Shown here in pieces: positions 31,862 to 61,207 of a stretch of DNA of 64,000 bases. The DNA is from a virus (taxonomy: Duplodnaviria > Heunggongvirae > Uroviricota > Caudoviricetes), in IMG/VR virus record IMGVR_UViG_3300021963_008171, positions 10,995 through 74,994 of that record; one strand, 5' to 3'. A program made the translations under genes and the position numbers. The notes beneath the pieces were generated by a model. The model saw only the letters and a list, made by a program, of their open reading frames with translations. It made no database searches and was not told the DNA's origin. Numbering within the stretch: the stretch's first letter is position 1; every line of letters starts with the position of its first letter.

Positions 31862-32764
31862 ATGAAAGTAATTTGGGTCCTAGAAAATATCAGGAAAGAC
31901 CATAAATTTTTTTTACCAGAAATAGAACTTCTTGGATTGATCGCTTCTATTTCTAATTGGAAATTACTGTATCCAGAAACAAACACGCATCTTTATTGTG
32001 ATTCCACAGTACTCGAATATCTAACCAAGATAGAAATATTAGATCTCTGGGATAACGTACACACAGAAGAACTTTGCACAGAGGACAAAATAAACAGAAG
32101 GGCTTTCTGGGCAGCTTCAAAAATTAAAATTCTAAGAAATATAGAGGCTCCTTTTATAATAATGGACTGTGATCTTTATTTTAAAAAAAGATCTCTAGAT
32201 CTTGATTCTTTTCAAAAATTTGACATAGTAACAAATCAGATAGAAGATGGATTGGGATACTATCCAACAAAGAGAGATCCTATTATAAAAGAAATGAATG
32301 ATCCTTTTAAATACAGATCCTCACACGCATTCAATGTTGCCTTTCTTTATATAGGCTGTGAAAAAATTAGAAGGGAATACACAAATTTAGCATATTCATG
32401 GATGGAAGATTTATCTTCAAAAAATCCAGACATTGGGATTTTAACCGGAAAGCATATGATTTTCTGTGAACAAAAGATGCTAAAGGAATTTTCAGATCTT
32501 TATGATTCTAAGGTAATATCCCTAGCAGATCATATGATAAAAGGAGCGGAAGAAAGAATACCTATGATGGATGGATATGAATCTTTAAATCTTAGAGATT
32601 CAGATTATGTGCATCTGCACAGATTAAAAAGCAGAGTTAAATTCAATTCCGGGCTGTTTATTGATACCAGAAGTGATATCATTAAATCTATATACAATCT
32701 AAGTCCAGAGAGATCTAAGAAAGCATTCTCAGCATTAAAGCTCTCTAATCAGGATCTATTCTAA
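31862..32764 (+). CDS. putative glycosyltransferase (Gly_transf_sug / DxD-type)
   Basis: ...AASKIKILRNIEAPFIIMDCDLYF resembles the sugar-binding DxD region of the OCH1/alpha-GalT family; weak. Confidence 0.35.
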   Translation: MKVIWVLENIRKDHKFFLPEIELLGLIASISNWKLLYPETNTHLYCDSTVLEYLTKIEILDLWDNVHTEELCTEDKINRRAFWAASKIKILRNIEAPFIIMDCDLYFKKRSLDLDSFQKFDIVTNQIEDGLGYYPTKRDPIIKEMNDPFKYRSSHAFNVAFLYIGCEKIRREYTNLAYSWMEDLSSKNPDIGILTGKHMIFCEQKMLKEFSDLYDSKVISLADHMIKGAEERIPMMDGYESLNLRDSDYVHLHRLKSRVKFNSGLFIDTRSDIIKSIYNLSPERSKKAFSALKLSNQDLF

Positions 32765-33380
32765 CCTTTCTTTTATCCGAAATGATGTAATCGTAAATTA
32801 CATCATTTTCTATTTCTACTCCAATATATTCTAGCATCCTTGCAATTTCTGAAATGTTATGGCCGACAAAAAGATCTTCATAATAAAATATAGGCCACGA
32901 ATTTTGTTCTGCTATTGAGGTCATTTTATAGGAAAAATATTTGAAAGATTCGATTTCATTCTTTAGTCTTTCCCGATCTATTTTATTTACATCATATATC
33001 TTAGGAATATCCCACCCAATCTTAGAATCTAGATTTATTAAAAGACTTTCTGCCTGTAATCCTTTATCTCTTCTATCCAAAACTATAACCTTATCAAAGA
33101 ATTCTTTCATCCAATCAGTAAATCTTCTTTCATCGTTTCCTGTCGATTTTTTGGGATGCTGGCTACATCCAAAAAGGGTTTTAGTTAATACCTGATCGTA
33201 TTTAAAAAAAGGATCTATATAATCAAAATCAAAACCTTCTTTATAATATGTAACGTAATTTTTTGGATTATATGGTTCATAGAAACATTGAAATCCCTTT
33301 GGATGTAAATGCGATTCCAACATTCTATATAAGGAGGTTGAACCTGTTCTTGGCCTAGCTAATATTGCTATTTTACTCAT
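32745..33380 (-). CDS. sulfotransferase
   Basis: N-terminal 5'-PSB-like ILARPRTGSTSL; 211 aa. Confidence 0.6.
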   Translation of the reverse strand: MSKIAILARPRTGSTSLYRMLESHLHPKGFQCFYEPYNPKNYVTYYKEGFDFDYIDPFFKYDQVLTKTLFGCSQHPKKSTGNDERRFTDWMKEFFDKVIVLDRRDKGLQAESLLINLDSKIGWDIPKIYDVNKIDRERLKNEIESFKYFSYKMTSIAEQNSWPIFYYEDLFVGHNISEIARMLEYIGVEIENDVIYDYIISDKRKVRIDPD

Positions 33381-33407
33381 TACATATCTATCCTAATGGT
33401 TTGGATA

Positions 33408-33989
33408 TCAAATTAATCTCTTTCCTGATTTCCCTCCTCTTAATTTATTCTGAGGATTTACTATGTTAATTTTAGGGGTAAACCCTAGATAAGATGCTAT
33501 TTTTTCACCTCCCGTGTTATTGAAATATAGATCTTCGTATGTTACCTGTATACAGTCCTTTAGTGATTTAAAATATTTATTTCTTATTACTATTGATTCG
33601 TGAACGGATCTTATCCTTTCCTCGTTATCCAATAGAAATTCGTTATTTATTTCATAATATGAAACGTCCCACTTATCATTAACTAAATTATTATGCCACC
33701 TATTATGAACGTTTGCCCAAACTACGCTTTCTGCTTGAGCCATAGAATCATTCCTTGTTAAAACTATTCTTTTATCAAAGAAATCCTTACCATTATCATA
33801 ACTCCATCTATTATCAGTTGATATCTTAACTATACACTCATTCATCTTTTCCAATTTAATTCCTTTAAAAAATTCCTCATGTTTAGGATTTAGCAACTCG
33901 TGATAATACGTTATACCGGTCTCAAGTTCTAACCATTCCCCCAGAGATCTTGATCCAGTCCTGTAGTCGGTGTATATTAATATTCTCAT
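33408..33989 (-). CDS. sulfotransferase
   Basis: ILIYTDYRTGSRSL; paralog of the neighbours. Confidence 0.6.
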   Translation of the reverse strand: MRILIYTDYRTGSRSLGEWLELETGITYYHELLNPKHEEFFKGIKLEKMNECIVKISTDNRWSYDNGKDFFDKRIVLTRNDSMAQAESVVWANVHNRWHNNLVNDKWDVSYYEINNEFLLDNEERIRSVHESIVIRNKYFKSLKDCIQVTYEDLYFNNTGGEKIASYLGFTPKINIVNPQNKLRGGKSGKRLI

Positions 33990-33992
33990 CTG

Positions 33993-34523
33993 CTATATCA
34001 ATTGTTTTTTCATATTTCTATATCTTTTAGATCCTATTTCGAATTTTGATTCAAATTCTAAATAATCCTCAATTTTCTTAAGACCCTCTTTTGAATAAAA
34101 TAATTCCTCATATGTTAAATGAAGACATTCTATTAATTTTTTAAATTCCACATTTTCAGAAATTATTTTATTTTCTATTTCTTTAATTTCTTGCTTGTTT
34201 GAATTTAAAAAATCATCCGATATAGAATATGCTGAAAATTTCTTTTCTTCTATTTCAGAATATAATCTACTTTCAGCTTGTTCCCTAGTATTTTCCCTTA
34301 CGAGAACTATTTTTTTATCGAACATATGTTTGATTCTATCATAAGAATCTTCGTCCGGGCAAACCTTGTATATTCCGAATGTGTGCGAATTCACAGCTTG
34401 GTCAAACTCATCGTTTGTTTTATAATGAAATCTTCTATAATAATCACAGCTATATTCTATCATCAAAAAGTTAGCTAATGATGTGGATCCTGTTCTATGG
34501 CTTGTGTATATTAATATTTTCAT
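33993..34523 (-). CDS. sulfotransferase
   Basis: ILIYTSHRTGSTSL; paralog. Confidence 0.6.
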   Translation of the reverse strand: MKILIYTSHRTGSTSLANFLMIEYSCDYYRRFHYKTNDEFDQAVNSHTFGIYKVCPDEDSYDRIKHMFDKKIVLVRENTREQAESRLYSEIEEKKFSAYSISDDFLNSNKQEIKEIENKIISENVEFKKLIECLHLTYEELFYSKEGLKKIEDYLEFESKFEIGSKRYRNMKKQLI

Positions 34524-35346
34524 TGATGTGCTTTAATATATTATTTGCAATCTCCTCATGCCCACTATAGCTTGGATGATAATCAACAATTTTACCATTT
34601 GTATCGTGCATAATAGTGTGCTTATCTTTGCGTATTTTATATGATATTCCATTATCGCCATCGGAAATTAAATTTTTTGGCTTCTCGCAACATTTAGGCC
34701 AGTAGTCTTCGTGTAGGATAAAAACATTAAATCCTATATTTAAGAGAATTTCATTTATTTGTATAAATCTCCAAACCTCCCTCTCGTAATATTTTTTGGT
34801 TGATATGAATTCTAAAAAAAAGTCTTGCATTAAATCATACTTTTTTTTAGATAATTTTAAATTTTCATTACGTAAATATTGCCCGGTGTTTGTATAGAGT
34901 AAGGTGTCTTCTCCCCCGTCCTCATAACTCTTGATTATATTATTAATAAAGACGGTTTTTAAGAAATATGGAGATTGATTATCGGGATCATATAAAAAAT
35001 CTCTAGGCTCAATGCACCACCCACCCAGGAGCTTTTGCTGTTTAACTAAGGGGAAGTCATATCTAGCGCTAGTCGATATTTGAATTATGATAATATCGTC
35101 TTTTTTAAAATTATTAAACTCCTTTAATATTCTATCTAAAATAGAATCGTTTGTTGACCCATTTACGCCATAGTTTAAAATATCAAATCCGATTTTTTCT
35201 GCTACATGTTCCGCCCATATTTTTTTTGTTGGATCGATATAATCAAGATATTTTGAATTGTAAAATGATTTAGGATCGCCCGACTTATCCTCTTTGCATC
35301 CGTGTCCCCACGTAAAACTGTCACCAAAAGCCCAGAGTTTACTCAT
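34495..35346 (-). CDS. SGNH/GDSL hydrolase
   Basis: N-terminal LWAFGDSFTWGHG (GDS(x) block I). Confidence 0.6.
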   Translation of the reverse strand: MSKLWAFGDSFTWGHGCKEDKSGDPKSFYNSKYLDYIDPTKKIWAEHVAEKIGFDILNYGVNGSTNDSILDRILKEFNNFKKDDIIIIQISTSARYDFPLVKQQKLLGGWCIEPRDFLYDPDNQSPYFLKTVFINNIIKSYEDGGEDTLLYTNTGQYLRNENLKLSKKKYDLMQDFFLEFISTKKYYEREVWRFIQINEILLNIGFNVFILHEDYWPKCCEKPKNLISDGDNGISYKIRKDKHTIMHDTNGKIVDYHPSYSGHEEIANNILKHINENINIHKP

Positions 35347-35930
35347 ATTAATTTTTTTTCAAAATTTAAAAAAGAAAACATATTATAATATTTTCTATCC
35401 TCTTTAATCATATTCATCATAATACCATATTGGTCGGGATAAGTACTTTTAATATAATTTTTAATATAATTAGGGCTCCTCCATATATTAAATTCTTTAA
35501 AATTATATCTATCTTTATCGTATGGTTTCATTTTTCCCTCGAGAGATAAAAACAAAGTTAGATCTTTCAGTCTTAAAGCAATCGGCTTTTTATCCTTGGA
35601 TAAATAGGCCTCAAAAATAGTTCTATTCAGAATCCCACACCAGTGTGTTGACCCTAATTCAGAAACAAACAGGTTAATTAATTCTTCCTCCGTAATTCCT
35701 TCCCAGTTACTATGATTGTTCCACAAGCTTAAAATCTCTGTGTGTAGAGCACTATTTAGATGATCCTCAGGGTCTCTTAATATTATAACCCCCCAATTCA
35801 AATTCTTAAATTCGTCCCATCCGGCATCGAGCATAATTACTCCTTTTGTTTCTCCCCCGAAGGATCTTAAATATCTCGTTCCACACTTTAACGGTGTTAT
35901 AAATCTATTATCGATTTGTATTATCGTCAT
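35343..35930 (-). CDS. sulfotransferase-like protein
   Basis: TPLKCGTRYL resembles the PAPS 5'-phosphosulfate-binding loop. Confidence 0.4.
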   Translation of the reverse strand: MTIIQIDNRFITPLKCGTRYLRSFGGETKGVIMLDAGWDEFKNLNWGVIILRDPEDHLNSALHTEILSLWNNHSNWEGITEEELINLFVSELGSTHWCGILNRTIFEAYLSKDKKPIALRLKDLTLFLSLEGKMKPYDKDRYNFKEFNIWRSPNYIKNYIKSTYPDQYGIMMNMIKEDRKYYNMFSFLNFEKKLI

Positions 35931-37424: not shown

Positions 37425-38825
37425 TTATTTTTCTGGGACGAAGTTGTGTGTTATTACGCTACCTAGTAGATTAACCCCGGTAATTCCGTTTAAATCTGTA
37501 CCTGCTACAAATACGTCATCAGGCTCTATGTTTATTGTTGTGATATTACCGTTGTACCATTCTAAATTTATTGAATTTATGTCAGCAACAATTTCATCTG
37601 AGATTACAATTGAATCTGTGTCCTCTATATCACTTGCTATTTTGAATTTAACGATGCCTGTGTTTTTTTCCCTAATTAATAGTTTTTCGTTTGGAGTTAC
37701 CAGTGTACTTCCGTTTAATGATCCATTGGAATATTCTATTCTTGGAAGCCAACCCTGAAATGTTGAGGTTAATTTATTAATAACAGATGCTGAAGAATAC
37801 GTGATTAACTCAGATATTGATAAAGATGATGACCAATTTAAACTCTCTGTTGAAAGTTCGTCTTTATTTAAACCTGATATAGAAATAGATTTAATTACAT
37901 CTCCTATATCAATGGAGTTTAAATCAATGGAAATTTCCTGATCTTCTACAATTTTAATAACCTCGTATTCGCTGGGTGTTCCCGTAGAATTCATGGGATT
38001 TGAGAAATACATAGACCTCCATTTATTGTCTAATTTATTATCTGTATATGTTATTTCAGTTTCCGCTAGTGGTACTGTGTTAGAATAAACACATCCCCCC
38101 ATATCAATAATGGTTTCAGCATCCTCTAATAATAGCGTCCATGTTCTGATCACGTTTGAAATTTTCCCATTTTCTAACGTATTTTCGTCAAATCTATATT
38201 CCTGCAGCATACTTGTACCATCTAGTGTAGATTTTAAATTTGACAGATTCGTTTCATTGTCTATTTTATAAAATGCGGGATATTCATTTTTTTCAAAATC
38301 TGGCAGTATTTTTTTAGCTATAACGTTAGGATTTAAACCGTTATCTATTAATTCGTTTAGATTATCAAATGTAACATTATCATCTGGGTGTAAAAGACAC
38401 GTTTTGGGTAAAATTCCCTCATTGTTTGATTCAAATAGCAATTTTACCATTTCAGACTTATCCCTGCAATAAAGATCGTCTATGATGGCAGTTAAATCAT
38501 ATGCGCATCTCAGATAAAATGTACTTTCGTCTACAACTATAGAAGGTGTAGTCAAGCTATTATTTGGAACTACAATTAACTCCAGTATTATGCTGTTATT
38601 GTCACAAAAATCTTGAAACTTAGAAATAGCAGACTGTGAAATGTGCTTTTTTTTGTAAACTAGTATTAGCTTAGTATACGAATTAGACGTCAAATATGTC
38701 ATTAAATTATCCAATTCTAGAAATTCGATAGTTGTGTGAAAAAGATCAACATCTGTGTTTGTTTCTAAGAATTTTATGTCGTTTTCCAATTTTAAAAAAT
38801 CGGATCCTATTAATACTGCTTTCAT
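37425..38825 (-). CDS. hypothetical protein (466 aa)
   Basis: Long ORF with no recognised motif. Confidence 0.5.
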   Translation of the reverse strand: MKAVLIGSDFLKLENDIKFLETNTDVDLFHTTIEFLELDNLMTYLTSNSYTKLILVYKKKHISQSAISKFQDFCDNNSIILELIVVPNNSLTTPSIVVDESTFYLRCAYDLTAIIDDLYCRDKSEMVKLLFESNNEGILPKTCLLHPDDNVTFDNLNELIDNGLNPNVIAKKILPDFEKNEYPAFYKIDNETNLSNLKSTLDGTSMLQEYRFDENTLENGKISNVIRTWTLLLEDAETIIDMGGCVYSNTVPLAETEITYTDNKLDNKWRSMYFSNPMNSTGTPSEYEVIKIVEDQEISIDLNSIDIGDVIKSISISGLNKDELSTESLNWSSSLSISELITYSSASVINKLTSTFQGWLPRIEYSNGSLNGSTLVTPNEKLLIREKNTGIVKFKIASDIEDTDSIVISDEIVADINSINLEWYNGNITTINIEPDDVFVAGTDLNGITGVNLLGSVITHNFVPEK

Positions 38826-38835
38826 ATATTGTTTT

Positions 38836-39417
38836 TTATAAATATTTATTTTTTCTCTCCATTATTTTTTCTTTCAATAAAAATGGAATCTTTTCTTCGA
38901 TACTAAAGGTTTCGTCGTTATATAATAGATGAAAATCGTCTAAAAACTCAGTTTTAAAATTGGTAATATTTCCGTACGATAAATACCAGCTATCAATTGT
39001 AACAGATTCATCGTATGTTCTATCCCTATTTTTAACCCTATTAATACACACGTCCAGCGGCGCATATAGCATAAACATTATGGTTTTGTATCCATTAATA
39101 TTCAACTTTTTGCGCTGTTTCCTTATAGAATCTATATATCTACCAACTGTATCGATGACTATATTATCCCCATGGGCTATAGCTTCTAAAAATGTATTAT
39201 AACTAATATCCTTTGCACTCTCGAAAAACTTAGAAGCCTGTCCTGCCTGATCCTCGCTGAAATCTGTTATTTTAACCCCCATCCCCGAGCCTTTTAATAG
39301 TTTTTCGTATGGGATGTCAACATTAATCTTCTTAAAAGAACTAAAATATCTATCGGAAAATGTAGTTTTACCACTTCCCCCAGAGCCACAAACAAAGACT
39401 GCTATCTTATCTTTCAT
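38836..39417 (-). CDS. P-loop kinase/NTPase
   Basis: FVCGSGGSGKTTFS Walker A. Confidence 0.5.
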   Translation of the reverse strand: MKDKIAVFVCGSGGSGKTTFSDRYFSSFKKINVDIPYEKLLKGSGMGVKITDFSEDQAGQASKFFESAKDISYNTFLEAIAHGDNIVIDTVGRYIDSIRKQRKKLNINGYKTIMFMLYAPLDVCINRVKNRDRTYDESVTIDSWYLSYGNITNFKTEFLDDFHLLYNDETFSIEEKIPFLLKEKIMERKNKYL

Positions 39418-39874
39418 TTACCCATTTTTTTATTGATTCAATATCCTCATTGTGTTTAATTAGTTCTGGCTCTGTTTCTAGTATCCATAATTTATCCTTT
39501 AGAATAAATTCAGGCTTTAAAACCCTTATTGAGTAACCCCCGGATGATATCGTGTTAAAAATGTTTTCTACGTAATTAACAAACAAGTGAAATTCCCCGC
39601 ATTTGTTTTTATTAAATCCGGTGTATACCTCAAAATTAAATCCAAGATCCTGGTTGACTATTAAATCACCCCGATACAATCTAAATTTCCTTTGTAAAAT
39701 ATTTTCGTAAATGTCCCAATCTTTTTTTAAAATATTAAGATCTATATCAGAAATATCTCTACTTATTACCCCTTGTAGATTTAAGCTTAAAGATCCTCCG
39801 ACAATTATATTACCCTCTGTGATACTGTAAATTTCTTTGAATATCTCCTCGTAGGGTCCGTGTAGTTTAATCAT
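39407..39874 (-). CDS. minimal nucleotidyltransferase (NTase fold)
   Basis: VGGSLSLNLQGVISRDISDIDLNI fits hG[GS]-x(9-13)-DhD. Confidence 0.45.
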   Translation of the reverse strand: MIKLHGPYEEIFKEIYSITEGNIIVGGSLSLNLQGVISRDISDIDLNILKKDWDIYENILQRKFRLYRGDLIVNQDLGFNFEVYTGFNKNKCGEFHLFVNYVENIFNTISSGGYSIRVLKPEFILKDKLWILETEPELIKHNEDIESIKKWVNER

Positions 39875-40422
39875 ATTAATGTCTTTTTAAATCCACCAGA
39901 TCCTTTAAGAGAAACCCAATTGACCAAAGAATATCTGATCCCGCTAATAACAGGGGTTACCCTGTGTGGTGTGTCGGAATAAAAGATCAATAAGGTTCCT
40001 GTGTTAACATTTGGAGTTGTTAAATTACCATTATCGTCTTTGAATTGTAGATATCCCCCGTCATAATCATTATTGAGTACGATTACAACCGAACAATATC
40101 TTTCTCTGTAGACATCGTCTGAAGAATCTGTATGCCAATTATAATATTCATCGGGTTTGTATTCAGTAAATTGATATCTACCTAGATTTGTTAATTCGTG
40201 TCCCTTAACATTCATGGTTTTTCTTAGAATTTCCTTTAATCTATCATCTAAACCATCAATCTTATCTATAAATCCCACTGATGATTTTCTAGCGTTAGAA
40301 ATACCAGAATTTGCCACTTTTGCTGCGGTTAGATTCAATTCAGTTTTATACTTTATTATACATTCGAAACATTCATCCTCTGTTAAAAATCCACAAAAAA
40401 CTTGAACGTTCCTATTCATCAT
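39871..40422 (-). CDS. 2OG-Fe(II) oxygenase (prolyl 4-hydroxylase-like)
   Basis: ...WHTDSSDD...HRVTPVISGIRYSLVNW (HxD...H...R). Confidence 0.6.
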   Translation of the reverse strand: MMNRNVQVFCGFLTEDECFECIIKYKTELNLTAAKVANSGISNARKSSVGFIDKIDGLDDRLKEILRKTMNVKGHELTNLGRYQFTEYKPDEYYNWHTDSSDDVYRERYCSVVIVLNNDYDGGYLQFKDDNGNLTTPNVNTGTLLIFYSDTPHRVTPVISGIRYSLVNWVSLKGSGGFKKTLI

Positions 40423-40633
40423 TCATCTTTTTTAGTCCGTATTTAATACATTTGTACCATATTCTTTCGTGCAAATAGTATTGAATGGGTTTCCACAGGA
40501 GCTCTGCAACACCAAAGGCTGCCCCAATCTTTATTGATCCGGTTACTATCCACATTGTTAAAAATCCAATCGTAGTACTAAGCACCCTATAGCTAATTGT
40601 TTTTGCTATGTGTCTCTTTTTCTCTACTATCAT
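40412..40633 (-). CDS. small membrane protein (DUF2061-like)
   Basis: 73 aa with two TM segments. DUF2061 is found fused to or next to APS kinases; from memory. Confidence 0.35.
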   Translation of the reverse strand: MIVEKKRHIAKTISYRVLSTTIGFLTMWIVTGSIKIGAAFGVAELLWKPIQYYLHERIWYKCIKYGLKKMNDE

Positions 40634-40653
40634 ATATTATATGTGTATAAAAA

Positions 40654-41031
40654 CTATCCTTTGCTTACGTCATATTTTATAGACCCATCAGCTGACATAT
40701 GACCAGTTCTTATAGCAGTACCGCTTATTGCTCCTACCTCTGCTGGCGGTTCATGGTAAATCACATCATATCCTACTCCCCTTCCATAATTAACACTTTC
40801 TATATCAGGTATAACGGAGATAAAAAGTCTCCCGGTTTGTAAATAATCGTTCAGTTCGATTTTTAATTCATCAAAAACTTGCAATGCAGATTTTGGATTG
40901 TTTTCGTCTTGCGGTACGTCTCTAATTGCGACCCAGACATTCTTCCCCTGACTAAATTGCTGATCTATTAACCACTGGTGTCCTTTGTGCCAGTTTTGCC
41001 ATCTTCCGATGTATAACGCGTATTTTTTCAT
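40654..41031 (-). CDS. minimal HxGH nucleotidyltransferase (cytidylyl/adenylyl-transferase fold); candidate sulfate adenylyltransferase
   Basis: YIGRWQNWHKGHQWL ((H/T)xGH motif) and C-terminal ISGTAIR (ISxTxIR motif). The start overlaps the APS kinase stop (ATGA). Confidence 0.5.
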   Translation of the reverse strand: MKKYALYIGRWQNWHKGHQWLIDQQFSQGKNVWVAIRDVPQDENNPKSALQVFDELKIELNDYLQTGRLFISVIPDIESVNYGRGVGYDVIYHEPPAEVGAISGTAIRTGHMSADGSIKYDVSKG

Positions 41032-41465
41032 ATAGATTCTAGACCCAAAATACTGATAAGTTCCTCGAACGATTCATTCAGATCATCACCATTTACAAAT
41101 GCCTTATAATTATCAACGGGCAGCTCAAATGCTTGTACATGGAGTTTATCCTTTCCTGAGAAATGCGGCCTATTAAACAGTATCTCAGTGACCTCGTTAT
41201 TCGCTTTTAAATCCTCCCTAATTGCACGATAAGGACAAACCATACTTATCACTACATCATATCCTTTTTGGCTCATAAAACGAGCTATTGTAAAGGATCT
41301 TTCTATGTTTCTAATTCTCCCCGAATATGAATAATCAGTATTTGGAAATATCTCTCTTAAATCGTCGCCGTCTATCCAAATTGTTTTTTCGCCCAATCTT
41401 TCTACGAGCATACTAGACATTTGGGTTTTTCCTGTGCCAGGCTGCCCGATAAACAAATAAATCAT
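41028..41465 (-). CDS. cysC: adenylyl-sulfate kinase (APS kinase)
   Basis: FIGQPGTGKTQ P-loop followed by WIDGDDLR (the LDGDNxR APS-binding motif); 145 aa. Confidence 0.65.
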   Translation of the reverse strand: MIYLFIGQPGTGKTQMSSMLVERLGEKTIWIDGDDLREIFPNTDYSYSGRIRNIERSFTIARFMSQKGYDVVISMVCPYRAIREDLKANNEVTEILFNRPHFSGKDKLHVQAFELPVDNYKAFVNGDDLNESFEELISILGLESI

Positions 41466-41694
41466 ATATTTTTAAATTAATGGTTATATGTGAACGGATC
41501 TCTTTTTCTGATCTCCTCTATTTTCTTCATGAACTCCTTCTTTTTCCTTCTTTTTTCGAAGTAATCCTTGATCCAGTTTAGTATCTTTTTCATCTTAATA
41601 GTTATATTGATTATATATTTTAAGTTTCCCCCTTCCTGGCGGTAACTATTTCGGAATTTTATCCAATTTTACTCTAAAATATTAAAATAGAAAT

Positions 41695-42918
41695 ATGGTT
41701 TGGAATTACCAAGATACAGTGCTAGTTCATGTGGAACTTTCCAATCTTTGCAATGCTGCTTGTCCCCTTTGCCCAAGATATGTAAACAATTCGTTAAGGG
41801 TCAATCCAGAATTGGACTTGGGCAGCGTTTCTTTTGAGGATTTTAAAAAATGGTTCCCTCTAGAATTTGTACAAAAAAGTAAAGGATGGATATTCTGCGG
41901 TACTAATGGCGACCCCATGATGGCTAGAGACGTGTATGAGATATTAGAATATGTTCTCAGAAATTCGACTGCTAAGGTCCAGGTCAACACTAACGGTTCC
42001 ATAAGAGACGGGGAATTTTGGGAAAAAATAGGATCTTTATTTGCCGAGCCCTGTGAAAATAGCAGATATGTTGTTTTCTCTGTTGATGGACTGGAGGACA
42101 CGAACCACATCTACAGAAGAAACGTGAAATGGGAGAGGGTGATGGAAAATATGAGAGCCTATGCAAAATCAGGATCTACTGGTATTTGGGACTTTCTAAT
42201 ATTCAAGCACAATGAGCATCAGCTAGAGGAGGCTGAGCTTCTCTGCAAAGAAATAGGTCTAGCATTTTCTCCAAAAAGACCCTTTGGGTTTGAAACGGGA
42301 AATCCTGATGAATACCAGGACTTAATGGTTTATGACATGGAAGGAAATTTTTTATACAAGATAGAGCCGGCCAGCGAGGAGTGGAGATTAAATAGATCCA
42401 TGAATAAATTTGAGAGAGGAGAGGAAAAAATATGGATTCCGGGAAAGGGGAAAAGAACAGATGATGAAATCAAAGAAAAGTGGAATGGACTGATCGAGAG
42501 GGATCTTCCTAAATATAAATTCCCGGAAAGATTCAAAGAAAAATCAGTTAGTTGCAAATCTTGCCATCCTATCGGGAAGGAAATTTATGTTGATTGTAAG
42601 GGAAATGTTATGCCTTGCTGCTTTGTTGGAACAATGTACAACAGTGACTTTCAACACCACGAGGCATTACAGATAAAAAAACATTTATGGGACTGGGGAT
42701 TGGATAAAATAAATCTGAATAATCATTCTCTCAAAGATATACTAGATAGCAAATATCTAGATGAGGTTTTTGCCAACCGCTGGGAAGGAGCTAAGGATGA
42801 GGATAAAATGGGATATTGCTTTAACACATGCTCGGTTGATCACATGAAAGATCTTTTTGTCAGAAAGGAAAATCTACCAATTTCTTCAGAAAAATCAGGC
42901 AAAAAAAGTCTTATCTAG
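41695..42918 (+). CDS. radical SAM / SPASM-domain enzyme
   Basis: CNAACPLC (Cx3Cx2C) near the N-terminus; C-terminal Cys cluster CKSCHP...CKGNVMPCC. Confidence 0.65.
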   Translation: MVWNYQDTVLVHVELSNLCNAACPLCPRYVNNSLRVNPELDLGSVSFEDFKKWFPLEFVQKSKGWIFCGTNGDPMMARDVYEILEYVLRNSTAKVQVNTNGSIRDGEFWEKIGSLFAEPCENSRYVVFSVDGLEDTNHIYRRNVKWERVMENMRAYAKSGSTGIWDFLIFKHNEHQLEEAELLCKEIGLAFSPKRPFGFETGNPDEYQDLMVYDMEGNFLYKIEPASEEWRLNRSMNKFERGEEKIWIPGKGKRTDDEIKEKWNGLIERDLPKYKFPERFKEKSVSCKSCHPIGKEIYVDCKGNVMPCCFVGTMYNSDFQHHEALQIKKHLWDWGLDKINLNNHSLKDILDSKYLDEVFANRWEGAKDEDKMGYCFNTCSVDHMKDLFVRKENLPISSEKSGKKSLI

Positions 42919-42945: not shown

Positions 42946-45441
42946 ATGAACGATAAGATAAATTTAGTCTATGACGATTGGCCTCTTGATCAGGAAAGGC
43001 CGAATCCCAATGGAGATAAATATTTTCCAGAAGCAAATGCCTGGATGACTGGTGATGGTCCGATGGAGACTCTTCGATACTGCAATTACGTCAACCGAAG
43101 AATGGAAGATGTCGACAAGTACCAGGAGGAAAATTTCTTTTATGTTGTTTGGCATCGACATTCTCTCTATGACAGATTTTTGTATTTTGACAGACTTCCA
43201 ATAGGTGATGATATGATAGGGGCTTTCCAAAGAAAGCCAAATCTTTATCTTCTTTTAATAAACGATCAAGAGATAGAGCCTATAGAAACTATAAGCAAAC
43301 TTGATCTCGCTCTAGAAAGAAATAATATAGATCCAAGAAAGGTTTTTGTAGTTAACAACAATTCTAGAAATTGGGAATATAAAAAAGAATTGGGGAGTAA
43401 TATTAATGTTCATAGTACGAGGGCAATGCCTCTAGCATTGGCTAAAATTCCCAGAAGTAATTTCGTAGAGAATAAAGAAGGGCATTTTTTCATGTCACAC
43501 AACCATTCTTTAAGAGAAAGCAGATCCGCGTTTGTGTGTCTCTTAAAAAAATATGGACTGATCGATGATTTTGATTGGTCTTATTTGAAGCTCTGGAGAC
43601 TACCTGGTGAGGATTGGATAACTATCTATAGAAGAATATTCAACGATTCCGATATGGAATTCATGATGCCAGAAATAGAATATTTTAATTCTTATGGTAT
43701 TAAGAAAAGCAATTACGAGTCACATTTTCCGTGGCTTGATGAAATGACAACTAATAGTCCTTCTTGGTGGGAAACATTTAATTCACAGCAGTACGAGAAT
43801 ACCTATTTTAATGTAACTGTGGAAACACAATATTTTGGAAGGGACCTTCACATAACAGAAAAGTCATTTAAACCCTTTATCCATCTGCAGTTTCCTATGA
43901 TTCTTGCCTCCAGACATCATATAAAACATATGCGGGAGTATTACGGGTATGATTTTTTCGATGATGTGATTAACCACGATTATGATAACGTCGTAAGTGA
44001 TAGAGATAGAATCTTTAGGTTCATAGAAGAACTAAAAAGAATTCAGGAGAATAAAGAATTCTTTATCGATTTTTATAAAAATAACAAGGAAAGATTTCGG
44101 AGGAATCAAGAAATGGTTTATCAATTCACCAATGAATATGATGCTAGCTATTTCAGGGCATTGACAAAATTTGATCACCCAAAGAAAACCCTTAATCTTG
44201 TTTATGATAATTGGGATACCCAAACTAATCGCCCATTAAGAGGCAATTCTGAAGATCTTTACCTAAGTACATTCCACATGAATGTTGACAGTGTAGTTGG
44301 ATCCTTACAATTTGATAGAAGATTAATCAGAAGATATAGATTGGAAGATGTTCCTAAGATAAAAAATGAGACATTCTTTTATTTTGTCACCTTAATTCCT
44401 GGCATCCTAGCGGAGAATTTAAGATCTGGAAAACTACCAATAAATAGAGATGCTATCAACATGCTCAAGAATTATTCAAACTTTAATGTGATAATAATGA
44501 ATGAGCAGGAAGCAGAAAGAAAAGAAACACTGGTTCTTCTTGATAAATGGTCCAAAGAATCCGGCTTAAATCAGCAACAAATTTGGTTTTCTAATAACAA
44601 CCCAAGACTACAAGAATTCAAAGAGGAAATAGGAACTGATATAAATGTTCATTCGACAGTTAGACTTGCTAATTTCACAGCAAATTCTGTTATACATTCA
44701 GTGGGAAGGGTGGAGTTCAAGTCTGAGAAAGACGGGGAATTTTTCATGTGTCACAATAGAAGGCCAAGACCGCATAGATATGGTTTACTATGCTTGCTTA
44801 AAAAGAGCGGGGTTTTAGATGATGTTGATTGGTCTTTAGTTCAAGGGTTTCAGTTCAAGGGAAATAAGCACCCTGAATCCTTCTTTAGAACAATATTTAA
44901 CGATGAAGATATAGAAAACATGAGAGAAGAAATTGAGTACTTCTCTAACATAGAACAAAAGAAAAGTAGATACGAGGAAGAAAGAACATGGTTCGATGAT
45001 AGGGAAAATGAAAATAATGTTCCTTGGAATGAAACCTATGATAAAAATCAGTTGGAAAATTCATATTTCAATATCACAACAGAAACTGAATTTTCATCAG
45101 ATCTGACACACATATCAGAAAAATCTTTCAAAGCTTTCTGTGCAATGCAGTTTCCCATGATTCTTGCATCTGCTCACCACATCAGAGAAATTAAAAAGAA
45201 ATATGATTTTGATTTTTTTGATGATGTGATCAATCACGATTATGACGACGAAGAGAATCACAGAGACAGACTTTTTAAATTTGTAAAAGAGATAAAAAGA
45301 ATAAACGACAACAAGGAGTTCTTCATAGAATTTTATAAGAACAACAAATTTAGATTCGAGGAAAATCTTAGAAAAATAGAGGAGAAAGTAAAGGATCAAT
45401 CAGATTCTGACTTTTTAAAAAGAATATCTGGTATAATATGA
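42946..45441 (+). CDS. internally duplicated protein (two ~400-aa homologous halves), possible glycosyltransferase
   Basis: FPMILASRHHIKHMREYYGYDFFDDVINHDYDN (half 1) versus FPMILASAHHIREIKKKYDFDFFDDVINHDYDD (half 2). Also KINLVYDDWPLDQERPN versus LNLVYDNWDTQTNRPL. Confidence 0.55.
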   Translation: MNDKINLVYDDWPLDQERPNPNGDKYFPEANAWMTGDGPMETLRYCNYVNRRMEDVDKYQEENFFYVVWHRHSLYDRFLYFDRLPIGDDMIGAFQRKPNLYLLLINDQEIEPIETISKLDLALERNNIDPRKVFVVNNNSRNWEYKKELGSNINVHSTRAMPLALAKIPRSNFVENKEGHFFMSHNHSLRESRSAFVCLLKKYGLIDDFDWSYLKLWRLPGEDWITIYRRIFNDSDMEFMMPEIEYFNSYGIKKSNYESHFPWLDEMTTNSPSWWETFNSQQYENTYFNVTVETQYFGRDLHITEKSFKPFIHLQFPMILASRHHIKHMREYYGYDFFDDVINHDYDNVVSDRDRIFRFIEELKRIQENKEFFIDFYKNNKERFRRNQEMVYQFTNEYDASYFRALTKFDHPKKTLNLVYDNWDTQTNRPLRGNSEDLYLSTFHMNVDSVVGSLQFDRRLIRRYRLEDVPKIKNETFFYFVTLIPGILAENLRSGKLPINRDAINMLKNYSNFNVIIMNEQEAERKETLVLLDKWSKESGLNQQQIWFSNNNPRLQEFKEEIGTDINVHSTVRLANFTANSVIHSVGRVEFKSEKDGEFFMCHNRRPRPHRYGLLCLLKKSGVLDDVDWSLVQGFQFKGNKHPESFFRTIFNDEDIENMREEIEYFSNIEQKKSRYEEERTWFDDRENENNVPWNETYDKNQLENSYFNITTETEFSSDLTHISEKSFKAFCAMQFPMILASAHHIREIKKKYDFDFFDDVINHDYDDEENHRDRLFKFVKEIKRINDNKEFFIEFYKNNKFRFEENLRKIEEKVKDQSDSDFLKRISGII

Positions 45442-47105: not shown

Positions 47106-48076
47106 TAAACAAGAATTCAAGAATTTTAATTACCGGTGGATCTGGATTGGTTGGACAAAATTTAACTGAAAGACTAGTCAGAGAGGGATATACAGATTTA
47201 AGAGTAAATCTTCATAGAAGAGGAGTTAGAAAGGTTCATGACGGTGTTAATTACACATATCATGATCTACAAACATACGAAGGGTGTAAAATCGCAACAG
47301 TGGACGTTGATGTTGTTTTTCATGCCGCTGCTTCAACCTCAAATGCAGTTGATACTGTAGTAGATCCTTTAGCACACGTTACACCAAATGTTGCTATGAA
47401 TAATTTTCTTATAGATGCAGCTTGGAGGAATAATGTACAGCACTATATTTTCATTTCTTCCAATACCGTTTATCCACCAAAGGGTGATGAGCCTGTGGTA
47501 GAAACAGATTTTCTATTTGATGAACCTTATCCAGTATATTTTCCAGTTGGCTGGATGAAAAGATACGCAGAGGTTCAGTGCGAACTTTACGGAAAATATC
47601 TCCCAAGAAAGATGAAATCAACTGTGATAAGACCAGCCAATTTGTTTGGTCCTCATGATAAGTACGATTTCAATAAATGTCACGTTACCCCAGCAACAAT
47701 AAGAAAGGTAGCAGACAAAATGAACCCGATTCCTGTTTGGGGTGACGGATCGGAATTAAGGGATCTCCTTTTCGTAGAAGATTTTGTAGAAGCTCTACAG
47801 ACGGTAATGGAAAAAGAAACTGAAATGTTCGAGGTGTATAATGTTGGATCTAATAAAGTATATTCAGTTCTTGATGTTCTTGAGAAGATGAAAAAGATTG
47901 CAGACTATGATGCACCGACAGAGTTCATTAGTGGAAAGCCTTCTATGATACCAACTAGAAAAATAGATTCTAATAAAATCAAAGAAAAATTAGGATGGGA
48001 GGCAAAAACCCCCCTAGAAGATGGATTGGCTATAGCTTATAATTGGTATCTTGAGAATAATAAAGAATTCAAATAA
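47102..48076 (+). CDS. NAD-dependent sugar epimerase/dehydratase (GDP-L-fucose synthase-like)
   Basis: ILITGGSGLVGQNL; 324 aa. Confidence 0.65.
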   Translation: MINKNSRILITGGSGLVGQNLTERLVREGYTDLRVNLHRRGVRKVHDGVNYTYHDLQTYEGCKIATVDVDVVFHAAASTSNAVDTVVDPLAHVTPNVAMNNFLIDAAWRNNVQHYIFISSNTVYPPKGDEPVVETDFLFDEPYPVYFPVGWMKRYAEVQCELYGKYLPRKMKSTVIRPANLFGPHDKYDFNKCHVTPATIRKVADKMNPIPVWGDGSELRDLLFVEDFVEALQTVMEKETEMFEVYNVGSNKVYSVLDVLEKMKKIADYDAPTEFISGKPSMIPTRKIDSNKIKEKLGWEAKTPLEDGLAIAYNWYLENNKEFK

Positions 48077-60737: not shown

Positions 60738-60812
<75 letters not shown>

Positions 60813-60823
60813 AATTTAAAATC

Positions 60824-61207
60824 ATGTCTACCAATTGTAATATCTGCAGCGAAAAATGTTTTGGAAAGGATGGATATGATGGAAGTTGCTGTACAATAGA
60901 AGCACGTGACTATATCATAGGTCCACATAAGGACGCTAAGCAATTCATTCAATCATTATCATTAAAGCTCGGAAGAGAGATCAGCTACGAGTCAATATTC
61001 ATTGATTACGAAGAAGGAAAAAGACTTTTTCCCGACAAATCCGCATGGCAAAGCCCAACTTCATATCCTGCATTCAGAGTTGATCTAAATAATCCAAGAA
61101 ACCCCTGCATCTTTTACAATACAGTAGTTAAATCATGTATGGTATATGATATCAGACCAGAAACATGCGAGACATATCAATGCGATTATCTTAAAAGTAA
61201 TCTCTGA
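60824..61207 (+). CDS. Cys-rich protein (YkgJ/UPF0153-like putative metal-chelating domain)
   Basis: CNICSEKC...GSCC ... CDYL. The ORF-track N-terminus (60752-60823) overlaps the tRNA, so the start is moved to the ATG at 60824. Confidence 0.5.
   Translation: MSTNCNICSEKCFGKDGYDGSCCTIEARDYIIGPHKDAKQFIQSLSLKLGREISYESIFIDYEEGKRLFPDKSAWQSPTSYPAFRVDLNNPRNPCIFYNTVVKSCMVYDIRPETCETYQCDYLKSNL

What the first reader, a model, noticed from the sequence alone, without database searches (positions are those of the whole stretch)
40654..41031. Minimal 125-aa HxGH nucleotidyltransferase coupled to APS kinase: candidate novel small ATP-sulfurylase
The protein has the (H/T)xGH motif (WHKGH) and the C-terminal ISxTxIR motif (ISGTAIR) of the cytidylyl/adenylyl-transferase superfamily, to which ATP sulfurylase Sat also belongs. 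It is far smaller than any known Sat (~390 aa). Its start overlaps the APS kinase stop, which suggests co-function. PAPS synthesis needs an APS-forming step, and no CysDN or Sat homolog is visible in the window. This gene is the obvious candidate. A sugar-phosphate cytidylyltransferase (TagD-like) is the alternative.
Basis: inference. Interest (0 to 1): 0.7.

Follow-up and report, generated by a model that had tools for sequence, protein, structure and literature searches.

The report
Minimal candidate sulfate-activating enzyme in phage
A 125-residue phage enzyme, sitting between an APS kinase and a small membrane protein, belongs to a large unnamed family that is always found next to enzymes handling the activated-sulfate nucleotide APS. 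It is therefore a strong but untested candidate for a third, miniature type of ATP sulfurylase, possibly the one long missing from SAR11 ocean bacteria.

Summary
A 125-aa ORF at 40654-41031 (minus strand) carries WHKGH and ISGTAIR, and its ATG overlaps the stop of an APS-kinase-like gene (ATGA).

By sequence profile and fold, its nearest solved relatives are archaeal NadM-type NMN adenylyltransferases, not TagD, PPAT or canonical Sat. However, the 33-residue segment that should hold the nicotinamide pocket is reduced to 8 residues, and two new arginines are invariant.

The family is very large (phages, bacteria, archaea). It is fused to canonical APS-kinase domains in both orders and fused or adjacent to DUF2061. 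In genomes its commonest neighbours are sulfotransferases, and no canonical sulfurylase was a recurrent neighbour.

In Pelagibacteraceae it lies at or within two genes of aprM-aprB-aprA, mirroring the sat-aprMBA operon of Allochromatium. Published work says Pelagibacter lacks sat and cysDN.

The window also encodes three or four small sulfotransferase-like proteins inside a glycan-building island.

Best reading (about 0.6): a minimal sulfate adenylyltransferase that, with the kinase, makes PAPS for phage-directed sulfation. No activity has been measured.

The parts
40654..41031 (-). 125-aa minimal HxGH nucleotidyltransferase (NT), the candidate sulfate adenylyltransferase
   Evidence: ORF and motifs. 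AF2 model pLDDT 92.6. Best relatives are NadM-type NMNAT. Family-invariant residues are G9, R10, Q12, H15, G17, H18, R37, G83, R84, G87, S103, T105 and R108.
41028..41465 (-). 145-aa short APS-kinase-like P-loop kinase; its stop overlaps the NT start (ATGA)
   Evidence: PF01583 5.4e-10, above the cut-off. NCBIfam APS kinase models hit at 1.9e-13 but below their cut-offs. All top PDB hits are APS kinases. It lacks a 14-residue lid segment that includes FTG.
40412..40633 (-). 73-aa DUF2061 small membrane protein, a conserved third member of the module
   Evidence: PF09834 5.4e-16. A DUF2061 gene is present in 63 of the 81 loci searched (80 viral loci plus the window), usually immediately downstream of NT. 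Fused to NT in P0158. Fused to a full APS kinase next to NT in L053 and L071.
39871..40422 (-). 183-aa 2OG-Fe(II) oxygenase in the same gene string; its start overlaps the DUF2061 end
   Evidence: PF13640 3.2e-15. An equivalent gene lies between NT and DUF2061 in L007-L009. Its role in the module is unknown.
32745..33380 (-). 211-aa sulfotransferase-like protein (RPRTGSTSL ... RRDKGLQAES), a candidate PAPS consumer
   Evidence: PF13469 Sulfotransfer_3 at 1.7e-4, 22.4 bits, below the 27-bit cut-off. Three homologues carry a precomputed PF13469 hit. The family profile's best PDB hit is NodH sulfotransferase 9vki at 0.0079. hhalign against a genuine Sulfotransfer_3 cluster gives E=8.2e-5 over 35 columns.
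33408..33989 (-). 193-aa paralogue of the sulfotransferase-like protein
   Evidence: Alignment A7 shows shared RTGS.SL and R...QAES motifs.
33993..34523 (-). 176-aa paralogue of the sulfotransferase-like protein
   Evidence: Alignment A7.
35343..35930 (-). 195-aa possible fourth sulfotransferase-like protein (PLKCGTRYL, ILRDPEDHLNS); weak
   Evidence: Support comes from motif reading only. There is no Pfam hit and hhalign is not significant. A 29%-identical homologue lies two genes (about 580 bp) upstream of NT-DUF2061 in L004.
41466..41694 (.). Divergent intergenic region upstream of the kinase; possible promoter region of the K-NT-DUF2061 string
   Evidence: One weak sigma-70-like match on the minus strand at 41685-41656. 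No terminator-like site anywhere in 38700-41800. Promoter-like matches are not enriched over shuffles.

Best explanation
The 125-aa protein is a minimal, NadM-NMNAT-derived adenylyltransferase. It has lost the pocket for an organic substrate and uses sulfate as the nucleophile: ATP + sulfate -> APS + PPi.

The translationally coupled short APS kinase then converts APS to PAPS. The DUF2061 protein places the pair at the membrane by an unknown mechanism.

In the infected cell the PAPS would feed the three or four phage sulfotransferase-like enzymes 5-8 kb away. These would decorate a glycan made by the surrounding glycosyltransferase, epimerase and radical-SAM island.

Shown here:
- gene structure and overlap;
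- fold and nearest relatives;
- invariant catalytic motifs;
- deletion of the segment that in NMNAT lies between beta3 and the GY strand;
- fusions and synteny with APS kinase, DUF2061, sulfotransferases and AprMBA.

Inferred:
- the substrate (sulfate) and the direction of the reaction;
- the use of PAPS by the nearby genes;
- the role of DUF2061.
For: 1. Catalytic machinery is intact and invariant. GR[WY]Q..HxGH and IS[AG]TxxR are conserved in all 156 sampled members. The AF2 model has pLDDT 92.6.

3. The substrate pocket has shrunk. HMM positions 79-86 (8 residues) replace M. jannaschii residues 77-109 (33 residues). Family-specific invariant R37 and R84 appear.

4. Fusions act as Rosetta stones. 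Kinase-NT and NT-kinase fusions both occur, with full PF01583 domains (P0227 1.1e-45, P0214 1.5e-31, P0226 1.7e-31). There is an NT-DUF2061 fusion and a DUF2061-kinase fusion next to NT.

5. Neighbours point to sulfation. Among 147 genes within 3 genes of NT in 45 kinase-linked genome loci, the commonest families are Sulfotransfer_3 (12) and Sulfotransfer_1 (8). ATP-sulfurylase, PAPS_reduct and GTP_EFTU are not in the top 25.

6. Pelagibacteraceae synteny. NT lies immediately upstream of, or within two genes of, aprM-aprB-aprA-TauE in 9 contigs. This parallels sat-aprMBA in A. vinosum (PMC3779200). Pelagibacter is reported to lack sat and cysDN while keeping cysC, cysQ and aprBA (PMC5069961; PMC12636525).

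7. The window carries sulfotransferase-like genes and a glycan island.
Against: - No biochemical data exist for any member.
- The nearest solved relatives are NMNATs, and Sat is only a more distant superfamily relative.
- The Sat sulfate-binding signature QxRNPxHxxH and the GRD/HAG loop are absent. Only one relative gave a sub-threshold PF01747 hit (P0226, 17.6 bits against a 24.3-bit cut-off).
- The window's kinase is atypical, with a truncated lid, so its substrate may not be APS.
- About 40% of sampled family members have no kinase within two genes. These include a Dadabacteria/Thermodesulfobacteriota subfamily among housekeeping genes and a phage group with NT-DUF2061 only.
- Whole genomes could not be scanned, so absence of sat/cysDN in carriers rests on the literature for Pelagibacter only.
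- In cultured Xanthomonadaceae phages, the annotated genes around the fusion are MazG, a COG3236 protein and a topoisomerase, with no annotated sulfotransferase.
- The window's sulfotransferase assignments are below curated thresholds.
Confidence: 0.6

Rival explanations
1. The NT adenylylates some other small phospho- or oxyanion substrate, and the APS-kinase-like enzyme phosphorylates the 3'-OH of that product. This would give a PAPS-like group donor for glycan decoration. The Campylobacter O-methyl-phosphoramidate pathway is a precedent recalled from memory, not read here: an APS-kinase homologue (Cj1415) acts on a nucleotide-diphosphoramidate.
For: The viral kinase is divergent and lacks the lid segment with FTG. 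It reaches only about 40 bits against PF01583 and is below the NCBIfam cut-offs. The window island is full of enzymes with no assignable function, including three radical-SAM proteins and an 831-aa duplicated protein. The window's sulfotransferase calls are sub-threshold.
Against: Cellular fusions carry fully canonical APS-kinase domains (1e-31 to 1e-45), and their NT domains have the same invariant residues as the phage protein. Neighbours are genuine PAPS-dependent sulfotransferase families. In SAR11 the neighbour is APS reductase. No enzyme that would supply an alternative phospho-substrate recurs next to the module.
Confidence: 0.13
2. It handles APS but is not an ATP sulfurylase in the strict sense. 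For example, it could be an ADP-sulfurylase-type enzyme (APS + Pi <-> ADP + sulfate). Alternatively it could work physiologically only in the APS-consuming direction.
For: All the APS-centred context evidence applies equally. In SAR11 the proposed role of AprBA is sulfite oxidation, which needs an APS-consuming step.
Against: HxGH transferases use an NTP and release PPi (established knowledge of the superfamily). Fusion to APS kinase and adjacency to sulfotransferases require net APS synthesis. Known ADP-sulfurylases belong to another fold (from memory).
Confidence: 0.1
3. It is a non-catalytic or regulatory partner or scaffold of the APS kinase. The inactive Sat-like domain of the Thiobacillus denitrificans APS kinase (PDB 3cr8) is a precedent.
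Against: Every catalytic-motif residue is invariant across 156 members from distant phyla and viruses. The protein also occurs without any kinase, next to aprMBA, or alone.
Confidence: 0.07
4. It is an ordinary NMN adenylyltransferase for phage NAD salvage, or a PPAT or TagD-type enzyme as automatic annotation suggests.
For: The best sequence and fold matches are NadM-type NMNATs. The GRWQNWHKGH motif resembles the NadM motif aligned. JGI names it phosphopantetheine adenylyltransferase or NMNAT. Sano-like phages place it next to a COG3236 (NADAR-type) gene.
Against: NCBIfam NMNAT scores are 17-20 bits against cut-offs of 127-409. The 33-residue segment that carries the nicotinamide contacts in archaeal NMNAT (from memory) is reduced to 8 residues. 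The partner is an APS kinase, not a ribosylnicotinamide kinase, Nudix or NAMPT. PPAT and TagD match far more weakly (3e-3 and 0.26).
Confidence: 0.05

Closest known systems
Archaeal / NadM-type nicotinamide-mononucleotide adenylyltransferase (e.g. M. jannaschii MJ0541, PDB 1f9a; M. thermoautotrophicum 1ej2; NadM-Nudix 2qjo, 2qjt)
   Different: It is 125 aa against about 170 aa. The beta3-to-GY segment is 8 residues rather than 33, and the C-terminal helical tail is missing. Gly-Ser after beta2 is replaced by invariant Arg-(Asp/Asn/Glu), with an additional invariant GRxVGY loop. Its partners are APS kinase, DUF2061, sulfotransferases and AprMBA rather than Nudix, RNK or NAMPT.
Homo-oligomeric ATP sulfurylase Sat (PF01747; e.g. 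T. thermophilus 1v47, A. vinosum 4dnx) and Sat-APS-kinase fusions (PAPS synthases; A. aeolicus 2gks, human 1x6v)
   Different: It is about one third the size. It has no PUA-like N-terminal domain, no QxRNPxHxxH motif and no GRD/HAG loop. It does not reach the Pfam threshold. It is evolutionarily closer to NMNAT than to Sat.
CysDN (heterodimeric, GTP-coupled ATP sulfurylase; NodPQ, RaxPQ in sulfation clusters)
   Same: It occupies the same slot in sulfation gene clusters, next to cysC and sulfotransferases (knowledge of nodPQ and raxPQ is from memory; neighbours).
   Different: The fold is unrelated (PAPS-reductase-like ATP pyrophosphatase plus GTPase). The module has no GTPase partner.
Phage 'cysC' auxiliary metabolic genes of large freshwater phages (Chen & Banfield 2024, PMC10914622)
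   Same: These are short APS-kinase genes in large phage genomes and are transcribed in situ.
   Different: That work interprets cysC as part of assimilatory sulfate reduction and does not mention the adjacent NT, DUF2061 or sulfotransferase genes.
PHROG phrog_10255 'kinase' (Xylella phages Sano, Salvo and Bacata; Stenotrophomonas DLP6 and others)
   Same: It is the fused kinase-NT version of the same two proteins. The NT domains match the family profile at 1e-33 to 1e-37.
   Different: It is a single 245-aa polypeptide annotated only as kinase or hypothetical. Its annotated neighbours are mostly hypothetical proteins plus MazG, a COG3236 protein and a topoisomerase, not a glycan island.

Membership tests
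HIGH/HxGH nucleotidyltransferase superfamily (CTP_transf_like, PF01467) | (H/T)xGH motif after beta1 | tested here: met
   WHKGH at residues 14-18. H15, G17 and H18 are invariant in 156 members.
HIGH/HxGH nucleotidyltransferase superfamily (CTP_transf_like, PF01467) | C-terminal ISxTxxR motif | tested here: met
   ISGTAIR at 102-108. S103, T105 and R108 are invariant.
HIGH/HxGH nucleotidyltransferase superfamily (CTP_transf_like, PF01467) | Rossmann-like alpha/beta fold | tested here: met
HIGH/HxGH nucleotidyltransferase superfamily (CTP_transf_like, PF01467) | Pfam gathering score | tested here: inconclusive
   The window protein has no Pfam hit at E<=0.1. Relatives pass the 21-bit cut-off (P0226 37.2 bits, P0268 40.3 bits).
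NadM-type NMN adenylyltransferase | GRFQPFHxGH-type motif and overall sequence similarity | tested here: met
   GRWQNWHKGH. The family profile hits 1f9a at 1.4e-12.
NadM-type NMN adenylyltransferase | Segment between beta3 and the GY strand that carries the nicotinamide-ribose contacts (Trp/Asn helix; residue roles from memory) | tested here: not met
   33 residues in MJ0541 (77-109) correspond to 8 profile positions (79-86) here.
NadM-type NMN adenylyltransferase | NCBIfam curated score | tested here: not met
   16.7-20.2 bits against cut-offs of 127-409.
ATP sulfurylase Sat (PF01747) | QxRNPxHxxH motif and GRD/HAG sulfate loop (motifs from memory) | tested here: not met
   The sequence reads GRWQNWHKGH, and no GRDHAG-like loop is present.
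ATP sulfurylase Sat (PF01747) | Pfam model match | tested here: not met
   No hit for the window protein. The only hit in a relative is 17.6 bits, below the 24.3-bit cut-off (P0226).
ATP sulfurylase Sat (PF01747) | PUA-like N-terminal domain, about 390 aa overall | tested here: not met
   The protein is 125 aa and has a single domain.
ATP sulfurylase (function, not family) | Catalyses ATP + sulfate <-> APS + PPi | not testable with these tools
   Only context evidence is available: APS-kinase fusions, sulfotransferase neighbours and aprMBA synteny.
Glycerol-3-phosphate / sugar-phosphate cytidylyltransferase (TagD-like) | Best homology to GCT/CCT enzymes | tested here: not met
Phosphopantetheine adenylyltransferase (the JGI name) | Best homology to CoaD | tested here: not met
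   PPAT chains score 3e-3 or weaker against 1e-12 for NMNAT. NCBIfam PPAT gives 18.7 bits against a cut-off of 104.
APS kinase (PF01583), for the partner gene 41028-41465 | P-loop, DGD, Arg/aromatic APS-binding stretch, (I/V)SP-type strand | tested here: met
   GQPGTGKT, IDGDDLR, YSYSGRIRNIER and MVCPY align to APS kinases. Pfam gives 39.9 bits, above the 21.1-bit cut-off.
APS kinase (PF01583), for the partner gene 41028-41465 | Mobile lid with RDPKGLYKKA...FTG...YExP | tested here: not met
   There is a 14-residue gap that includes FTG. Only an FELP remnant of YExP remains. NCBIfam cut-offs are not reached.
Sulfotransferase (PF13469-like), for 32745-34523 | 5'-PSB loop and 3'-PB Arg...Ser motif; model match | tested here: inconclusive
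   RTGSTSL and R..QAES motifs are conserved. Pfam gives 22.4 bits, below the 27-bit cut-off. NodH 9vki scores E 0.0079. hhalign gives 8.2e-5 but only over the N-terminal 35 columns.

The most novel reading that the evidence does not exclude
This family may be a third, previously unrecognised type of ATP sulfurylase: a roughly 110-residue NMNAT-derived core.

If so, it would be the missing sulfate/APS-interconverting enzyme of SAR11 (Pelagibacteraceae) and of many uncultured lineages, including Marinimicrobia, Omnitrophota, Planctomycetota, Patescibacteria and DPANN.

Phages would carry it with a lid-less APS kinase and a DUF2061 membrane protein as a self-contained three-gene PAPS synthase. 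That would let them sulfate glycans even in hosts that cannot activate sulfate.
Probability: 0.5. Interest if true: 0.9.

Novelty: new variant of a known kind. Interest (0 to 1): 0.85.

Why it matters
Only two kinds of sulfate-activating enzyme are known to me: Sat and CysDN. A third, tiny one would have several consequences.

1. It would change how sulfur metabolism is read from genomes. SAR11, the most abundant marine bacteria, are described as having 'incomplete' sulfate pathways: aprBA under very strong purifying selection, plus cysC and cysQ, but no sat or cysDN. An APS + PPi -> ATP + sulfate step would complete sulfite oxidation with ATP gain. It would also explain the orphan cysC.

2. 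It would reinterpret phage 'cysC' auxiliary genes. They would be part of a PAPS-for-sulfation module rather than a contribution to host sulfate assimilation.

3. It would suggest that some phages direct sulfation of glycans.

4. It would provide a very small sulfurylase for PAPS regeneration in biotechnology.

The hypothesis can be tested directly with cultured material: Xylella phage Sano gp35, Stenotrophomonas phage DLP6 gp227 and SAR11 isolates.

Tried and rejected
Approaches that gave nothing or little:
- Single-sequence searches were uninformative. Pfam gave no hit and PDB phmmer gave only noise. A thin profile of close homologues (A1) gave NMNAT only at E 0.005.
- The first AF2 model, built from close homologues, was poor in the C-terminal third (pLDDT 72.7). 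Its Foldseek matches covered only about 80 residues. It was replaced by a model from a diverse alignment.
- The diverse alignment A4 was too variable for the locus scan, so a subset (A5) was used instead.
- The source phage could not be identified. Megablast of 8 kb and tblastn of two large ORFs against 50,697 phage records found nothing. PHROGs hit only 3 of 10 large ORFs.
- BFVD fold search gave nothing at E<0.001. The afdb50 library was unavailable.
- The DUF2061 literature (6 papers) deals mostly with metal-regulation and other unrelated topics, judging by titles and abstracts only, so its role stays open.
- Thin-profile hhalign of the window's sulfotransferase-like paralogues was weak, as was the profile of three sequences against the PDB. 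Only the 20-sequence profile gave NodH.
- In NT-DUF2061-only phages, a 363-395-aa gene lies upstream of NT and is the size of Sat. Its N-terminus reads as a membrane protein, so it is not Sat.
- The promoter and terminator scan showed no enrichment.
- Literature searches for a described small sulfurylase, or for a link between a cytidyltransferase and APS reductase, found none. This is absence in the held library only.

Interpretations considered and rejected:
- A NadR-like NMNAT plus RN-kinase pair is rejected because the kinase is APS-kinase type.
- A DNA-hypermodification kinase was considered because of the radical-SAM neighbours and the context in Sano phages. I set it aside because no thymidine-hypermodification genes were seen next to the module and the cellular contexts are sulfation and Apr loci.
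Full report
OBSERVATION

The ORF is real and is as described. It runs 40654-41031 on the minus strand, is 125 aa long and starts with ATG. WHKGH lies at residues 14-18 and ISGTAIR at 102-108.

The plus strand at 41028-41031 reads TCAT. On the minus strand this gives an ATGA overlap between the NT start and the stop of the upstream 145-aa ORF at 41028-41465.

That upstream ORF matches PF01583 APS_kinase (5.4e-10, 39.9 bits against a 21.1-bit cut-off). Its 18 best solved relatives are all APS kinases, led by 7yq0 at 1.5e-7.

Twenty bases downstream lies a 73-aa DUF2061 membrane protein (5.4e-16). It is followed, with overlaps, by a 2OG-Fe(II) oxygenase and further genes on the same strand. No terminator-like site occurs in 38700-41800.

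The gene is strongly conserved. There are 3232 homologues, with the top 120 at 71-100% identity. An identical protein lies on an 85.5-kb metagenome contig.

No window ORF of 280 aa or more that I scanned with Pfam is Sat, CysD or CysN. One ORF of that size (59334-60251) was scanned with PHROGs only.

WHAT THE PROTEIN IS

A single-sequence search is nearly blind. Pfam finds nothing, and NCBIfam gives only weak NMNAT, PPAT and cyt_tran_rel hits far below their cut-offs.

I therefore built a profile of 40 diverse family members (A4). Its matches to solved structures are:
- M. jannaschii NMNAT at 1.4e-12;
- other NadM-type NMNATs at 1e-9 to 1e-11;
- NadR at 2.7e-4;
- PPAT at about 3e-3;
- TagD at 0.26;
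- no ATP sulfurylase among the 60 matches listed, of 66 at E<=10.

So the protein is an adenylyl-type HxGH transferase descended from the NadM NMNAT lineage. The TagD alternative is rejected.

It is not an ordinary NMNAT, for two reasons:
- The alignment to MJ0541 splits into two blocks, and 33 NMNAT residues (77-109) correspond to only 8 profile positions. From memory of the archaeal NMNAT structures, that segment carries the Trp/Asn helix that holds the nicotinamide ring.
- The family has its own invariant residues: R37 after beta2 (Gly-Ser in NMNAT) and a GR84xVGY loop. These sit alongside G9, R10, Q12, H15, G17, H18, S103, T105 and R108, and all are invariant in 156 sampled members.

A lost organic-substrate pocket plus two new arginines next to an intact ATP site is what one would expect for a small oxyanion substrate. 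This step is inference.

FAMILY-WIDE CONTEXT

The family is large:
- 978 representatives at 50% identity;
- at least 538 loci in species-representative genomes;
- at least 580 loci in IMG/VR.

Carriers include Marinimicrobia, Omnitrophota, Planctomycetota, Acidobacteriota, Bacteroidota, Patescibacteria, DPANN archaea, Dadabacteria/Thermodesulfobacteriota and Pelagibacteraceae.

Four independent associations stand out.

1. APS kinase.
   - Kinase-NT and NT-kinase fusions both exist.
   - The fused kinase domains are fully canonical (PF01583 at 1.1e-45, 1.5e-31 and 1.7e-31).
   - Of 156 NT genes from genome loci, viral loci and the window, 29 are fused to a kinase and 65 have one within two genes.
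   - Sources name the fusions only 'adenylyl-sulfate kinase'.

2. DUF2061.
   - A DUF2061 gene is present in 63 of the 81 loci searched (80 viral loci plus the window), usually immediately downstream of NT or one gene further on.
   - It is fused to NT in P0158.
   - It is fused to a full-length APS kinase immediately upstream of NT in two Chitinophagaceae genomes.

3. Sulfotransferases.
   - I took 147 genes lying within three genes of NT in 45 kinase-linked genome loci.
   - The commonest Pfam families among them are Sulfotransfer_3 (12) and Sulfotransfer_1 (8).
   - Next come methyltransferases, B12/radical-SAM enzymes, GT2, epimerases and sulfatases.
   - ATP-sulfurylase, PAPS_reduct and GTP_EFTU do not appear in the top 25 (examples).

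4. APS reductase.
   - In a Pelagibacteraceae single-cell genome, NT is followed by a 264-aa membrane protein in the aprM position.
   - Then come AprB (PF12139, 8e-32), AprA, a 116-aa protein and TauE.
   - Eight further Pelagibacteraceae or Tara contigs show NT immediately upstream of, or within two genes of, aprM-aprB-aprA. The region also holds a Cys/Met-metabolism PLP enzyme, an MFS transporter and a CysQ-like phosphatase.
   - Another SAR11 genome carries a kinase-NT fusion in a GT2/SIS glycan region.
   - All these SAR11 proteins match the family profile at about 1e-38 and keep the signature residues.

The literature supplies the rest:
- In Allochromatium vinosum, sat lies immediately upstream of aprMBA and is co-transcribed with it (PMC3779200).
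- aprBA of this lineage, including P. ubique, is always preceded by aprM (PMC2211403).
- 'Ca. P. ubique' lacks cysDNCHIJ and sat yet keeps cysC, cysQ and aprBA (PMC5069961).
- A 2025 study still calls the pathways incomplete and finds aprAB among the genes under the strongest purifying selection (PMC12636525).

The one metabolite shared by APS kinase, APS reductase and the PAPS-dependent sulfotransferases (through PAPS) is APS. The only reaction I know that links APS to an HxGH nucleotidyltransferase is ATP + sulfate <-> APS + PPi.

THE WINDOW

The module sits in a glycan-building island. The island contains:
- two GT7 and one GT2 glycosyltransferases;
- two NAD-dependent epimerases/dehydratases, one fused to a 2OG oxygenase;
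- three radical-SAM enzymes;
- a methyltransferase;
- GDSL-like proteins.

Five to eight kilobases along the same strand lie three tandem paralogues of 176-211 aa. They share RTGS(T/R)SL and R...QAES motifs. The evidence that they are sulfotransferases is suggestive but below curated thresholds:
- a sub-threshold Sulfotransfer_3 hit (22.4 bits against 27);
- homologues with precomputed PF13469 hits;
- NodH sulfotransferase as the best solved match of the family profile (E 0.0079 over residues 3-125);
- hhalign E 8.2e-5 to a genuine Sulfotransfer_3 cluster, over 35 columns only.

A fourth candidate at 35343-35930 rests on motifs alone.

The window kinase is a short form. It keeps the P-loop, DGD, the Arg/aromatic stretch and the CPY strand. 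It lacks 14 lid residues, including FTG.

The source appears to be a large uncultivated phage:
- Close homologues sit on viral contigs of up to about 298 kb.
- A few PHROG hits support a phage origin.
- No cultured relative was found.

MECHANISM

1. NT adenylylates sulfate to make APS. This step is inferred.
2. The translationally coupled kinase makes PAPS. The family assignment is shown; the substrate is inferred.
3. DUF2061 localises the pair at the membrane. The association is shown; the role is unknown.
4. The sulfotransferase-like proteins use the PAPS to sulfate a phage-specified glycan or other acceptor. This step is inferred.

Coupling to the kinase, by fusion or by translational coupling, makes chemical sense. 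APS formation is thermodynamically very unfavourable and is normally pulled forward by APS kinase and pyrophosphatase (established knowledge).

RIVALS

- Another oxyanion or phospho-substrate giving a PAPS-like donor (0.13).
  - For: the odd viral kinase and the many unknown enzymes in the island.
  - Against: the canonical kinases in cellular fusions, the genuine sulfotransferase neighbours and the Apr neighbours.
- An APS-handling enzyme with different stoichiometry or direction (0.10).
- A non-catalytic partner, as in T. denitrificans 3cr8 (0.07).
  - Against: the invariant catalytic residues and the kinase-free occurrences.
- An ordinary NMNAT, PPAT or TagD-type enzyme (0.05).
  - Against: the scores, the deleted pocket and the partners.

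WEAKNESSES

- No activity data exist for any member.
- The Sat sulfate-binding signature is absent.
- About 40% of sampled members have no nearby kinase. These include a Dadabacteria subfamily among housekeeping genes and a phage group with only NT-DUF2061.
- Whole genomes could not be searched for sat or cysDN.
- In cultured Xanthomonadaceae phages, the annotated genes around the fusion are MazG, a COG3236 protein and a topoisomerase, not sulfation genes.

NOVELTY

I found no description of this family as a sulfurylase. I also found no link between a 'cytidyltransferase' and APS reductase in the held literature.

Databases call the protein hypothetical, cytidyltransferase, PPAT or NMNAT. The fusions are called 'adenylyl-sulfate kinase'.

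Work on phage cysC does not mention the partner gene.

If confirmed, this would be a third, minimal type of sulfate adenylyltransferase. It would belong to the known HIGH-transferase superfamily but not to the Sat family.

Noticed in passing
window 42946-45441 (+): An 831-aa protein with no Pfam family is an internal tandem duplication. Its two halves are 40% identical (E 7e-100). It lies between a radical-SAM/SPASM gene and an epimerase.
   Followed up: partly
window 45438-47105 (+): A 555-aa fusion joins an NAD-dependent epimerase/dehydratase to a C-terminal 2OG-Fe(II) oxygenase domain. A second epimerase follows at 47102-48076.
   Followed up: no
window 52383-53843 (-) and 53822-55234 (-): Two eukaryote-type GT7 (beta-1,4-galactosyltransferase-like) glycosyltransferases. 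One has a Laminin_G_3 / sialidase-N-like lectin domain.
   Followed up: no
window 41695-42918 (+), 48976-50421 (-), 50989-52383 (-): Three radical-SAM enzymes, one with a SPASM domain, lie in the same island. Related phage loci carry up to five in a row next to the kinase-NT pair (L007).
   Followed up: no
window 26845-28470 (+): A TROVE/Ro60-like RNA-binding protein (phrog_850 5e-42; Pfam TROVE 2e-6). I did not look for a partner Y-RNA-like gene.
   Followed up: no
window 38836-39417 (-) and 39407-39874 (-): A second P-loop kinase-like protein (Zeta_toxin/AAA_33) and a 155-aa protein with a faint DUF6036 nucleotidyltransferase hit lie in the same gene string as the kinase-NT-DUF2061 module.
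   Followed up: no
window 37425-38825 (-); L093:8615-10102, L110:8621-10150: A 466-aa protein without a Pfam family. Its N-terminus (VLIGSDF...) resembles that of the 495-509-aa genes just downstream of DUF2061 in related viral contigs; this was judged by eye only, with no alignment run.
   Followed up: no
window 41028-41465 (-): The phage APS-kinase-like proteins (142-156 aa) lack a 14-residue lid segment, including the FTG motif, that cellular APS kinases have. The NT partner might substitute for it in a complex.
   Followed up: partly
L004:8827-10587, L005, L006; L103-L118 class: A group of related phages has NT-DUF2061 without an adjacent kinase. In many of them a 363-395-aa membrane protein lies upstream and a 211-aa gene downstream.
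   Followed up: partly
P0197 (249 aa) and cluster members P0271-P0274: The NT domain is fused to DUF6717 (7.8e-34), a family of unknown function.
   Followed up: no
L056-L079 (Dadabacteria / Thermodesulfobacteriota chromosomes): A 152-aa subfamily keeps all signature residues but has no kinase neighbour. It is conserved next to Leu/Phe-tRNA-protein transferase, a class-I glutamine amidotransferase and a methyltransferase.
   Followed up: partly
L001 (Xylella phage Sano gp35), L002 (Stenotrophomonas phage DLP6 gp227), L003 (Xylella phage Bacata): Cultured phages carry the kinase-NT fusion (NT domain E 1e-33 to 1e-37). In Sano the region also holds a MazG-like pyrophosphatase and a gene annotated cysteine dioxygenase; in Bacata the gene just upstream is a COG3236 (NADAR-type) protein. 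They offer an experimental handle.
   Followed up: partly
L088:575-2709; L170:11119-11517: In SAR11, one NT copy sits next to an enoyl-CoA hydratase and an SBP56 selenium-binding protein (the methanethiol-oxidase family, as I recall). A HIT-family hydrolase flanks the NT-aprMBA-TauE island.
   Followed up: no
L020-L028 (Omnitrophota / Planctomycetes loci): A conserved cluster comprises two different sulfotransferases, an ADI/amidinotransferase-like protein, the NT-kinase fusion, a methyltransferase and a B12-radical-SAM enzyme. It may be the pathway for an unknown sulfated metabolite.
   Followed up: partly
window 60738-60812 (+): A tRNA-Met (CAT) gene overlaps the start of a predicted 151-aa ORF at 60752-61207, which is therefore probably spurious.
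   Followed up: no
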